Shown: positions 15,240 to 15,998, counted from the first letter of the stretch. The stretch is 64,000 bases of DNA from Clostridium sp. (GCF_036643715.1 NZ_JAVXRL010000008.1:2722-66721); one strand, 5' to 3'. The notes: generated by a model not told the origin, from the letters alone. Numbers and translations are program-made.

Positions 15240-15692
15240 ATGGAAATTAATGATATCCTACACGGATTCAATAATGACTCAGATTGTGACGATGACTGCA
15301 TGGATAATGATTGCGGATTTGGCAATGATTGTGGATGCGGTAATAACGGTTGCGGCGGCGGTAATAACTGCGGCTGTGGAAACAATAATATATGTTTAAT
15401 AATTTTATTATTAGTACTTTGTGGCGGATGTGGCTCACAAGGCGGAAATGGAGGATGTGGTAATATGGGAAATAATTGTTGTTGTTGTTGTTGTGAAAAA
15501 CCTAAATTTAAAAAATGTACAGAAACTGTGTATGTTCCAGAATGCGGATATCCAGCTTATGGATACGGAAATGCTGGAATGGGTGGAAACTGTGGATTCG
15601 GAAATGAATCTTGGTGGATTATAATACTATTATTATTATTCTGTGGCGGAAACGGATTCGGCGGAAACTGCGGCGGATGTGGAAACTGCTAA
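15240..15692 (+). CDS. Cys/Gly/Asn-rich protein, possible spore coat/exosporium component
   Basis: RBS aaggagg. About 25 Cys in 150 aa, a CCCCCC run (tgt x6 at 15477-15494), two short hydrophobic 'IIILLLL.C' modules. Confidence 0.7.
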   Translation: MEINDILHGFNNDSDCDDDCMDNDCGFGNDCGCGNNGCGGGNNCGCGNNNICLIILLLVLCGGCGSQGGNGGCGNMGNNCCCCCCEKPKFKKCTETVYVPECGYPAYGYGNAGMGGNCGFGNESWWIIILLLLFCGGNGFGGNCGGCGNC

Positions 15693-15731
15693 TAAAGTAT
15701 AAGAAATATAATGAAATAGGAGGAATTTAGT

Positions 15732-15998
15732 ATGTCTCACAAAAAATCAAGTTGTTGTAGTTGCTGTGATAGAACAGTTGTAGTTTCACCTCAACATCAA
15801 GGAAACTGCGGATGTGGAAATAATTCAATATGGATAATAATCTTATTATTATTATTCTGTTGTGGAAATGGAAATGGATTCGGTGGAAATTGTGGAAATA
15901 ATGGTGGCTGTGGTAATGGCTGTGGTAATAATAGTTTCTTATGGATAATTATATTACTATGTTGTTTCTGTGGAAACGGAACTGGTTTCGGATTCTAA
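15732..15998 (+). CDS. Small Cys/Gly/Asn-rich protein sharing the module of the upstream gene
   Basis: RBS aggagg. About 14 Cys in 88 aa, two 'GNNS.(L)WIIILL..(C)C' modules. Confidence 0.7.
   Translation: MSHKKSSCCSCCDRTVVVSPQHQGNCGCGNNSIWIIILLLLFCCGNGNGFGGNCGNNGGCGNGCGNNSFLWIIILLCCFCGNGTGFGF

What the first reader, a model, noticed from the sequence alone, without database searches (positions are those of the whole stretch)
15240..15998. Two tandem Cys/Gly/Asn-rich genes built from four copies of one short hydrophobic module
Seen: NCGCGNNNICLIILLLVLCGG, NCGFGNESWWIIILLLLFCGG, NCGCGNNSIWIIILLLLFCCG and NGCGNNSFLWIIILLCCFCG, separated by GGNCG-type spacers, plus a CCCCCC run. Each protein is about 16-17% Cys. 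The hydrophobic cores are about 10 residues, too short for a normal TM helix. Established: Cys-rich proteins form disulfide-crosslinked spore outer layers (B. subtilis CotY/CotZ, B. cereus ExsY, C. difficile CdeC/CdeM). Inference: self-assembling, membrane-inserting or amyloid-like spore-surface building blocks. A metal-chelating or RiPP-precursor role is less likely because no maturase is adjacent.
Basis: partly seen in the sequence, partly recalled or inferred. Interest (0 to 1): 0.65.

Follow-up and report, generated by a model that had tools for sequence, protein, structure and literature searches.

The report
Cysteine-rich hydrophobic late-sporulation protein pair
Two adjacent small genes of a spore-forming Clostridium encode cysteine/glycine/asparagine-rich proteins, each with two short greasy segments; they belong to an undescribed family of gut Clostridia whose genes sit behind promoters typical of the late mother-cell sporulation sigma factor sigma-K, so they are probably new components of the spore's outer layers.

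Summary
ORF A (15240-15692, 150 aa) and ORF B (15732-15998, 88 aa) each carry two copies of one module: a C/G/N-rich flank, the core W-I-I-I-L-L-L-L-F-C, then G/N. Cys is 16.7% and 15.9%.

Both are real genes. They have ribosome-binding sites, variants differ by in-frame indels, and orthologs lie in the same lon-ysxC-A-B-C context in four other Clostridium loci.

B-type proteins form a family of about 292 clusters at 50% identity. It has no Pfam or NCBIfam model and no literature. NCBI mislabels members as "chorion class high-cysteine HCB protein 13".

The main new evidence is regulatory. In Lachnospiraceae, 29 of 53 upstream regions carry a strict sigma-K promoter, against 1 of 222 controls. 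A matrix built from experimentally mapped C. difficile sigma-K promoters ranks the sites upstream of gene C and gene A 2nd and 23rd of 127,920 window positions.

The window encodes SpoVB, so the organism is an endospore former.

No homology to the YjcZ family was detected. YjcZ proteins are also sigma-K-controlled and share the Gly-rich-plus-hydrophobic layout.

The spore-surface interpretation is partly supported: expression timing is inferred, while localisation and assembly are untested.

The parts
15085..15133 (+). Terminator hairpin plus T-run after ysxC. It separates the A-B unit from the lon-ysxC operon.
   Evidence: Sequence; hairpin listed; only sub-threshold Rfam hits to the hairpin; the position is conserved in relatives.
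15173..15202 (+). Sigma-K-type promoter of the A-B operon: -35-like GTGTCA (15173-15178), a 16-nt spacer after the C, and -10 AATAGTATA (15194-15202). The start site is predicted near 15207-15208. The following box TAGTATAAA corresponds to the conserved A.TGTAAa box of the Lachnospiraceae promoters.
   Evidence: Gapless conservation in window, L011, L013 and L021; L013 has CATAGTATA. Ranks 5th of 127,922 with the Lachnospiraceae-derived matrix and 23rd of 127,920 with the C. difficile sigma-K matrix. Mapped C. difficile sigma-K promoters use the same -10 forms: AATAGAATA in cotE and CATAGTATA in CD0896, CD1063.2 and CD3569. The -35 has T where the consensus has the A of 'AC'.
15225..15231 (+). 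Ribosome-binding site AAGGAGG of gene A, 8 nt before the ATG.
15240..15692 (+). Gene A, 150 aa. It has an acidic N-terminus MEINDILHGF..., module 1, a Cys6 run, the conserved linker EKPKFKKCTETVYVPEC, and module 2.
   Evidence: orthologs P0075, P0076, P0079 at 44-53% identity; invariant residues C81 C82 C84 C85 P88 K89 F90 K91 K92 T96 V97 Y98 P100 E101.
15366..15428 (+). Module 1 (A residues 43-63, NCGCGNNNICLIILLLVLCGG).
15477..15545 (+). Cys6 run (15477-15494) and the conserved non-repetitive linker EKPKFKKCTETVYVPEC (15495-15545). It is paralogous to the N-terminus of B (CCSCCDRTVVVSP).
   Evidence: DNA repeat D8.
15588..15650 (+). Module 2 (A residues 117-137, NCGFGNESWWIIILLLLFCGG).
15718..15723 (+). 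Ribosome-binding site AGGAGG of gene B. The A-B gap is only 39 nt and holds no promoter-like site, so the two genes are likely one operon.
15732..15998 (+). Gene B, 88 aa: MSHKKSSCCSCCDRTVVVSP, then module 3, a G/N/C loop and module 4.
15804..15866 (+). Module 3 (B residues 25-45).
   Evidence: AlphaFold2 draws a helix at residues 30-44 with pLDDT about 61.
15915..15974 (+). Module 4 (B residues 62-81).
   Evidence: AlphaFold2 draws a helix at residues 69-81 with pLDDT about 63.
16012..16064 (+). Two conserved hairpins after B: an AT-rich one at 16012-16030 and GGAGGGC/GCCCTCC at 16038-16056. They are followed by A8 rather than a U-tract. The role is unknown; possibilities are 3'-end stabiliser, atypical terminator, or (A-tract) UP element of the gene C promoter.
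   Evidence: Fold z-score -4.6. Conserved in 4 loci with a compensatory change, GGAGGGT/ACCCTCC.
16079..16106 (+). Sigma-K-type promoter of gene C: AC, a 17-nt spacer, then CATACTATA.
   Evidence: One of only 7 strict matches in 128 kb of sequence counting both strands. Present in 4 of 5 Clostridium loci. Ranks 2nd of 127,920 with the C. difficile sigma-K matrix.
16136..16771 (+). Gene C, 211 aa. It is rich in Asn, Gly and Met and has conserved ends (NNPFGIDPNQL... and ...NMDMLLAVRDSVDSERIEFVDKIIGMYKKGDLD). It is always next to A-B and is possibly related to the Lachnospiraceae partner families Y and X.
   Evidence: orthologs. hhalign of the N-terminus against Y gives E=1.3e-3 (reversed control 0.26); the C-terminus against X gives 4.7e-3 (control 0.054). 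This similarity is weak.

Best explanation
A and B form a two-gene operon transcribed late in sporulation in the mother cell by sigma-K RNA polymerase. The neighbouring gene C has its own sigma-K-type promoter.

Each protein is almost uncharged and largely disordered, and is built from two short hydrophobic helices (core W-I-I-I-L-L-L-L-F-C) embedded in Cys/Gly/Asn-rich low-complexity sequence.

The proposed mechanism has three steps:
1. The proteins are made in the reducing mother-cell cytoplasm.
2. The hydrophobic cores drive self-association, or shallow or hairpin insertion into the membrane or lipid surrounding the forespore, or into the nascent coat or exosporium.
3. The many cysteines form intermolecular disulfides once the spore is released into air, giving an insoluble hydrophobic outer-layer component.

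Shown here: the anatomy of the genes, the existence of a conserved family, the conserved neighbours, the sigma-K-like promoters (in silico), and the spore-forming host.

Inferred: actual sigma-K dependence, location in the spore, insertion or assembly, and cross-linking.
For: Real, conserved genes.

Family-wide sigma-K promoter. The strict motif AC-N16/17-CATAnnnTA ends about 31 nt before the ATG in 29 of 53 non-identical Lachnospiraceae upstream regions. It occurs in 1 of 222 control upstream regions, and 0.57 matches are expected in shuffles. The consensus is GtAACAC-N15-CATAagATA.

This consensus matches the experimentally mapped C. difficile sigma-K promoters: -35 G(T/A)AACA and -10 (C/A)ATAnnnT(A) (Saujet 2013, PMC3789822, text, Table S7).

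A matrix built only from those 23 C. difficile promoters separates Cys-gene upstream regions from controls (median 10.3 against 3.8, Mann-Whitney p=5e-20). In the window it ranks the gene C site 2nd and the gene A site 23rd of 127,920 positions. With the Lachnospiraceae matrix the gene A site ranks 5th of 127,922.

The window encodes SpoVB (TIGR02900, 507 bits). Coprococcus eutactus, which carries a family member, forms spores (PMC11406416).

In Lachnospiraceae the gene is followed by two conserved uncharacterised genes. Family X occurs in 41 and family Y in 29 of 52 loci with enough downstream sequence. X carries a sigma-E-like promoter, ATA-N15-17-CATAnnnT, in 15 of 25 regions against 5 of 249 controls. 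That points to a mother-cell programme.

An architectural analogue exists: YjcZ of B. subtilis is tiny, Gly-rich with a hydrophobic core, and belongs to the sigma-K regulon (PMC517825; sequences).

Transcription: a 192-nt contig from a metatranscriptome, with one mismatch, covers 15356-15547, while lon and ysxC are not covered.
Against: All promoter evidence is computational. No start site or mutant data exist for any member.

The -35 of the window's A promoter has TC where the consensus has AC. Its -10 starts with A rather than C in 4 of the 5 Clostridium loci (3 of the 4 distinct sequences; L022 repeats L011), with C only in L013.

No localisation data exist, and there is no homology to any known coat or exosporium protein.

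The structure models have low confidence: mean pLDDT 46 for B and 32 for A.

K+R content is only 2.2% and there is no positive-inside bias, so classical membrane insertion is doubtful.

The metatranscriptome evidence is a single short contig, and raw reads from sister runs gave nothing.
Confidence: 0.55

Rival explanations
1. A and B are small integral membrane proteins, each a helical hairpin, of the mother cell or outer forespore membrane. Their role is not structural: for example modulating a membrane complex, lipid organisation or a channel during late sporulation, as is suspected for other tiny sporulation membrane proteins.
For: All four modules have 19-residue Kyte-Doolittle means of 1.57-1.99. 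AlphaFold2 draws two helices per protein. Two modules per protein is the rule, in 118 of 162 members. The sigma-K-like promoters fit this reading equally well.
Against: The cores are only 11 residues long. There are almost no flanking K or R residues (2.2%) to set topology. A Cys content of 16% and long G/N/C flanks are not explained by a simple membrane-anchor role.
Confidence: 0.2
2. A and B are thiol-rich metal- or redox-buffering proteins, acting like metallothioneins or as oxygen or oxidant sinks that protect the anaerobe's spore or sporangium.
For: Cys is about 16%, in CGCG and CxC motifs. The window locus lies 3 kb from a PerR gene. One homolog lies near a heavy-metal ATPase, HMA and ArsR genes.
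Against: These neighbours are not conserved across 82 loci. The invariant feature of the family is the hydrophobic core, which metallothioneins lack. No Pfam metallothionein hit was found.
Confidence: 0.1
3. A and B are precursors of ribosomally made, post-translationally modified peptides or bacteriocins, with a conserved short leader (MSDLAATNCG or MEINDILNGF).
For: They are small and Cys-rich, have a conserved N-terminal decapeptide, and occur as tandem paralogs.
Against: No maturase, protease or ABC exporter is a conserved neighbour. The conserved neighbours X, Y and the small IDGN-YEIDEEC protein have no enzymatic family hits. The radical SAM gene in the window is 16 kb away. The promoters are of sporulation type.
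Confidence: 0.05
4. A and B are non-functional or spurious low-complexity ORFs.
For: The composition is extreme, no family is known, and structure-prediction confidence is very low.
Against: Ribosome-binding sites are present and indels are in frame. The non-repetitive motif CCCCCCEKPKFKKxxxTVYVPE is conserved. Synteny holds in 5 loci, the family has 292 clusters, and the promoter is conserved.
Confidence: 0.02

Closest known systems
YjcZ family sporulation proteins (Pfam PF09680, TIGR01732; Bacillales)
   Same: Both are small proteins with a Gly-rich (plus Cys/Tyr) variable flank, one strongly conserved short hydrophobic core ending in Gly, and a second Gly-rich flank. B. subtilis yjcZ belongs to the sigma-K regulon (PMC517825). 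The function of YjcZ is also unknown.
   Different: No sequence relationship is detectable. There is no PF09680 or TIGR01732 hit. hhalign probability is 1.9%, lower than the reversed control. The core is WIIILLLLFC (11 aa), not FALLVVLFILLIIVG (14-15 aa). This family has two modules per protein, flanks richer in Cys and Asn, and occurs in Clostridia rather than Bacillales.
Cysteine-rich coat/exosporium morphogenetic proteins (C. difficile CdeC and CdeM; B. subtilis CotY/CotZ; B. cereus ExsY)
   Same: They are Cys-rich and expressed late in the mother cell; the CD1067 promoter is among the mapped sigma-K promoters. CdeC self-assembles (PMC7677010, listed). This is the same proposed logic of disulfide-stabilised outer layers.
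   Different: No homology was found. Those proteins are larger, soluble or globular, and lack hydrophobic modules. The family here is about 78 aa, nearly uncharged, and dominated by two greasy cores.
Silkmoth chorion class high-cysteine HcB proteins (the name NCBI gives to family members)
   Same: Only the Cys/Gly-rich composition of the flanks is shared.
   Different: Those are insect eggshell proteins. No chorion Pfam domain is detected, and no paper links the name to bacteria. The label is a compositional artefact, as is 'ground-like protein' for P0077.

Membership tests
YjcZ family (PF09680 / TIGR01732) | Match to the family HMM | tested here: not met
   No Pfam or NCBIfam hit for A, B or the isolated modules, even at E<=10. 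Precomputed Pfam is '-' for all homologs, whereas true YjcZ proteins all carry PF09680. HMMER's filters may drop some weak matches.
YjcZ family (PF09680 / TIGR01732) | Conserved core GGFALLVVLFILLIIVGA, detectable by profile-profile comparison | tested here: not met
   hhalign of 132 modules against 115 YjcZ proteins gives probability 1.9% and E=0.025 over 8 columns. The reversed control scored higher.
YjcZ family (PF09680 / TIGR01732) | Tiny protein (about 30-50 aa) with a single hydrophobic segment | tested here: not met
   A is 150 aa and B is 88 aa. The family median is 78 aa, with two modules in 118 of 162 members.
Sigma-K regulon (late mother-cell genes) | Promoter with -35 AC (G[TA]AACA), a 16-17 nt spacer and -10 CATAnnnTA at a suitable distance from the start codon | tested here: met
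   Family-wide: 29/53 against 1/222, and p=5e-20 with the independent C. difficile matrix. In the window, gene C has a strict match. Gene A has a near match that ranks 23rd of 127,920 positions, with a degenerate -35.
Sigma-K regulon (late mother-cell genes) | Transcription depends on sigK and has a mapped start site | not testable with these tools
   No pure-culture sporulation RNA-seq was found for any carrier. Only a single metatranscriptome contig covers gene A.
Cys-rich coat/exosporium proteins (CotY/CotZ/ExsY, CdeC, CdeM) | Sequence homology to those families | tested here: not met
   No Pfam or NCBIfam hit and no PDB sequence relative.
Cys-rich coat/exosporium proteins (CotY/CotZ/ExsY, CdeC, CdeM) | Physical presence in the spore coat or exosporium, extractable with reducing agents | not testable with these tools
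   This needs spore fractionation and mass spectrometry. After K92 of A and R14 of B there is no further K or R, so tryptic proteomics would miss most of each protein (sequences).
RiPP / bacteriocin precursors | Co-located maturase, protease or exporter genes | tested here: not met
   Neighbour clustering over 82 loci finds only families X and Y and a small basic protein as conserved neighbours. None has an enzymatic family hit.
Insect chorion high-cysteine proteins (the NCBI label) | Chorion central domain, eukaryotic origin | tested here: not met
   No Pfam domain was detected. The members are bacterial and conserved in bacterial synteny.

The most novel reading that the evidence does not exclude
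A-B, together with gene C, may be the Clostridium version of an unrecognised sporulation cassette that is widespread in gut Clostridia. In this reading, helical partner proteins made early in the mother cell (families X and Y under sigma-E-like promoters, with gene C as a possible Y/X relative) recruit or organise sigma-K-driven, nearly uncharged Cys/Gly/Asn proteins. The short greasy hairpins of those proteins would build a lipid-associated hydrophobic layer that hardens by disulfide formation when the anaerobe's spore meets oxygen. Such a layer would have escaped spore proteomics because the proteins yield almost no tryptic peptides.
Probability: 0.25. Interest if true: 0.75.

Novelty: new variant of a known kind. 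Interest (0 to 1): 0.58.

Why it matters
Spores are how most gut Clostridia, commensal and pathogenic, survive oxygen and move between hosts. Their outer layers outside C. difficile are almost unknown, and few B. subtilis coat proteins are conserved there.

This family is widespread in Lachnospiraceae and present in a Clostridium clade. It has no model in Pfam or NCBIfam, carries a misleading insect name in GenBank, and has a very unusual design: two 11-residue greasy cores in Cys/Gly/Asn low-complexity sequence, with almost no charge.

If it is a sigma-K-dependent spore component, three things follow. It gives a new marker for late sporulation in gut anaerobes. It gives a testable candidate for spore hydrophobicity and oxygen-triggered hardening. 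It also explains why such proteins are missing from tryptic proteomes.

The promoter consensus found here also shows that the C. difficile and B. subtilis sigma-K and sigma-E promoter logic extends to Lachnospiraceae.

Tried and rejected
Pfam and NCBIfam scans of A, B, C, the 305-aa neighbour and the four isolated modules gave nothing.

Families X and Y and the small IDGN-YEIDEEC protein also have no known family.

A literature search for the NCBI name found only a silkworm paper.

Homology to YjcZ was rejected by hhalign with a reversed control.

Sequence searches of the PDB found nothing relevant.

AlphaFold2 models were too poor (pLDDT 46 and 32) to justify a fold search.

RNA evidence:
- Only one 192-nt metatranscriptome contig lies on gene A.
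- Raw reads of sister runs gave no usable coverage.
- Wastewater and soil 'RNA' runs on a Lachnospiraceae locus were uninformative and possibly contaminated with DNA.

The A-type alignment found only two species representatives, Clostridium sp. Ade.TY and one MAG.

Cluster look-ups returned no names or taxa.

Strict sigma-F and sigma-G patterns gave 0 of 53 matches upstream of the family's genes. By eye, the window's A promoter also does not fit the sigma-H consensus as I recall it.

An ECF-type reading of the GTAAC -35 was rejected because the -10 is CATA, not CGTA or CGTC (from my own knowledge of ECF consensus sequences).

A lipoprotein reading was rejected because there is no lipobox: F or L, not G/A/S, precedes the Cys.

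Homology of gene C to X or Y is only suggestive (E of 1e-3 to 1e-2, probability up to 18%), so it is not claimed.

Full report
**1. The observation**

The region holds two same-strand ORFs, A (15240-15692, 150 aa) and B (15732-15998, 88 aa). Each has a strong ribosome-binding site 8 nt before its ATG, and the two are separated by 39 nt.

Cys is 16.7% in A and 15.9% in B. Gly plus Asn adds a further 34-39%.

The four modules are also detectable as DNA repeats at 62-81% identity, spaced by 222, 216 and 108 nt, which keeps the reading frame. The Cys run of A matches the N-terminal Cys run of B at 89%. So the second half of A (CCCCCC-EKPKFKKCTETVYVPEC-module) is a paralog of the first half of B (CCSCC-DRTVVVSP-module).

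A hairpin with a T-run after ysxC (15085-15133) separates the pair from the lon-ysxC operon.

**2. These are real genes**

Identical or near-identical copies occur in several metagenome assemblies.

Diverged orthologs of A (44-53% identity) and B lie in the same context, tig-clpP-clpX-lon-ysxC-A-B-C-(305 aa, reverse)-SBP-Fur/PerR. This holds in an ENA scaffold (L011), two MAGs (L013, GCA_051656525.1, and L022) and Clostridium sp. Ade.TY (L021).

The non-repetitive stretch CCCCCC(C)[ED][KE]PKFKK[CV][KT][QE]TVY[VY]PE is nearly invariant.

Related strains differ by indels of 3, 24, 3 and 12 nt, all in frame.

**3. The family**

B-type proteins, typically about 78 aa with two modules, are common in Lachnospiraceae and their relatives. 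Named sources include Roseburia, Coprococcus eutactus, Lachnospira, Anaerotignum and unclassified Lachnospiraceae. Most begin with MSDL[AST]ATNCG.

A profile search of 1.84 billion cluster representatives finds 292 at E<=1e-3 and 50 at E<=1e-10. Family medians are Cys 16%, G+N 33% and K+R only 2.2%.

The family is undescribed:
- There is no Pfam or NCBIfam model.
- There is no PDB relative.
- No literature exists; the NCBI name 'chorion class high-cysteine HCB protein 13' appears only in a silkworm paper.

The A-type architecture is confined to a small Clostridium clade: 2 hits among the representatives of 185,579 species.

**4. Regulation, the key evidence**

I aligned the upstream regions of the Lachnospiraceae genes on their start codons. 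This revealed a fixed promoter, GtAACAC-N15-CATAagATA-nAnTGTAAa, ending about 31 nt before the ATG.

The strict sigma-K pattern AC-N16/17-CATAnnnTA occurs in 29 of 53 non-identical regions. It occurs in 1 of 222 upstream regions of other genes in the same loci, and 0.57 matches are expected in shuffles. Sigma-F and sigma-G patterns give 0 of 53.

Saujet et al. [quoted passage not shown] Their Table S7 lists mapped sigma-K promoters such as:
- cotE: GTAACAC...AATAGAATA
- CD1067 (cdeC): GTAACAA...CATAGTATT
- CD3569 (yabG): GAAACAA...CATAGTATA

I built a matrix from those 23 experimental promoters alone. It separates Cys-gene upstream regions from controls, with medians of 10.3 against 3.8 and Mann-Whitney p=5e-20.

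**5. The window's own promoters**

Upstream of A, a block is conserved without gaps in the window, L011, L013 and L021: GTGTCAAA-N14-(C/A)ATA(G/A)TATATA(G/C)TATAAA. It aligns position for position with the Lachnospiraceae consensus, including the extra box after the -10.

- With the Lachnospiraceae matrix it ranks 5th of 127,922 window positions.
- With the C. difficile matrix it ranks 23rd of 127,920.

Its weak points are a T in place of the A of 'AC', and an A in place of the C of CATA. L013 has CATA, and several mapped C. difficile sigma-K promoters also use AATA.

Gene C (start 16136) has a strict match, AC-N17-CATACTATA, at 16079-16106.
- It is one of only 7 strict matches in the window on both strands.
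- It is present in 4 of 5 Clostridium loci.
- It ranks 2nd of 127,920 with the C. difficile matrix.

The window encodes SpoVB (507 bits against a cut-off of 372), so the organism is an endospore former. C. eutactus, another carrier, forms spores (PMC11406416).

**6. Conserved partners**

I clustered the neighbours over 82 loci. In Lachnospiraceae the Cys-rich gene is followed on the same strand by:
- family X (about 110-230 aa), in 41 of the 52 loci with at least 1.5 kb downstream;
- family Y (about 90 aa), in 29 loci.

A small basic protein on the opposite strand (MGKLIIDGNSVYEIDEEC...) lies between the Cys-rich gene and X in 37 loci. None of the three has a known family.

X carries a sigma-E-like promoter, (G)TTATA/ATA-N15-17-CATAnnnT, in 15 of 25 regions against 5 of 249 controls.

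Other neighbours vary, and no enzyme is conserved. This argues against a RiPP system.

Gene C of the window shows weak, colinear similarity to Y at its N-terminus (E=1.3e-3; reversed control 0.26). Its C-terminal helix shows weak similarity to X and Y (E=4.7e-3 and 1.4e-2; controls 0.054 and 0.22). This is suggestive only.

**7. Physical nature**

The hydrophobic cores are 11 residues long. With their Cys/Gly flanks, the 19-residue Kyte-Doolittle means are 1.57-1.99.

AlphaFold2 gives low-confidence models (mean pLDDT 46 for B and 32 for A). The only secondary structure at the modules is helical: B residues 30-44 and 69-81, A residues 51-59 and 125-136. A also has a short helix at residues 4-7.

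The near absence of K and R argues against an ordinary positive-inside membrane protein. It fits a self-associating or lipid-associated structural protein better. From my own knowledge, poly-Leu segments of about 10-12 residues can still integrate into membranes, so membrane association is not excluded.

**8. Comparison with known families**

The closest known design is the YjcZ family (PF09680/TIGR01732). I retrieved members to check my recollection. They have a Gly/Tyr/Cys-rich flank, the core GGFALLVVLFILLIIVGA, and another Gly-rich flank. B. subtilis yjcZ is in the sigma-K regulon (PMC517825).

Profile-profile comparison shows no homology: probability 1.9%, with the reversed control scoring higher. 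The resemblance is therefore in architecture and regulation, not membership.

The Cys-rich morphogenetic proteins CdeC, CdeM, CotY, CotZ and ExsY share Cys richness and late mother-cell expression, but neither sequence nor the hydrophobic modules.

**9. Verdict**

The interpretation as a sporulation-related outer-layer building block is partly supported: the regulatory evidence is strong in silico, but there is no localisation or functional evidence.

This is an undescribed protein family, with an undescribed conserved cassette, in gut Clostridia. It is a new variant of the known kind 'small or Cys-rich sigma-K-controlled spore proteins'.

It deserves follow-up. The experiments should avoid tryptic proteomics, because after K92 of A and R14 of B there are no further K or R residues.

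Noticed in passing
window 16803-16910 (+), downstream of gene C; also L011 ~8735-8855, L013 ~8425-8530, L021 ~6615-6740: This is a candidate small RNA conserved in four Clostridium loci. It has a -10-like TATAAT, two hairpins (the second with compensatory changes), an invariant unpaired C-rich stretch CCCCCC(C)AUCCCCCUUUU, and a GGCCGC/GCGGCC terminator with a U-run. From memory it resembles RsaE/RoxS-type C-rich regulatory RNAs, but Rfam gave no hit at E<=0.1.
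   Followed up: partly
window 16012-16064 (+), between genes B and C: Two conserved hairpins lie here: an AT-rich palindrome and GGAGGGC/GCCCTCC, the latter with a compensatory change in relatives. They are followed by A8 rather than a U-tract, so this is not a canonical terminator on either strand. The role is unexplained.
   Followed up: partly
Loci L018, L023-L102 (Lachnospiraceae-type), about 170-320 nt downstream of the Cys-rich gene in most of them, minus strand: A conserved small ORF of about 46-64 aa (33-126 over all loci) begins MGKLIIDGNSVYEIDEEC and continues with a Lys/Arg/Glu-rich tail. It lies between the Cys-rich gene and family X in 37 loci, with no Pfam or NCBIfam match. It is not found in the window.
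   Followed up: partly
Loci L010, L015, L018, L024-L101: families X and Y downstream of the Cys-rich gene: These are two uncharacterised helical protein families. X has the motif LQMLKtxIPYm...ELQ...mLxxiRxyCxxkEqExiD. Y has NNPxLxxMsPEKLqFL...LPFLls...AKkxgIxFsxxE...mspEExxkvDkl. X carries a sigma-E-like promoter, which suggests an early mother-cell pair.
   Followed up: partly
window 26638-28257 (+) and 28313-29818 (-): Two SpoVB/MurJ-type flippase paralogs are arranged tail to tail (convergent). The minus-strand one is a full SpoVB match at 507 bits. The plus-strand one scores below the cut-off at 212 bits.
   Followed up: no
window 16908-17825 (-): A 305-aa protein with an N-terminal hydrophobic anchor and no family match is conserved next to gene C in all five Clostridium loci.
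   Followed up: no
window 31863-33545 (+) and 34047-42260 (+): A B12-binding radical SAM methyltransferase-like gene is followed by a V-type ATPase operon (subunits I, C, A and B identified). It lies 16 kb from the finding and is not conserved with it.
   Followed up: no
GenBank annotations of family members (P0005, P0013, P0031, P0032, P0039, P0050, P0077, P0081): NCBI product names are 'chorion class high-cysteine HCB protein 13' and, for the C. sardiniense A-type fragment, 'ground-like protein'. These are compositional misnomers for bacterial proteins.
   Followed up: yes
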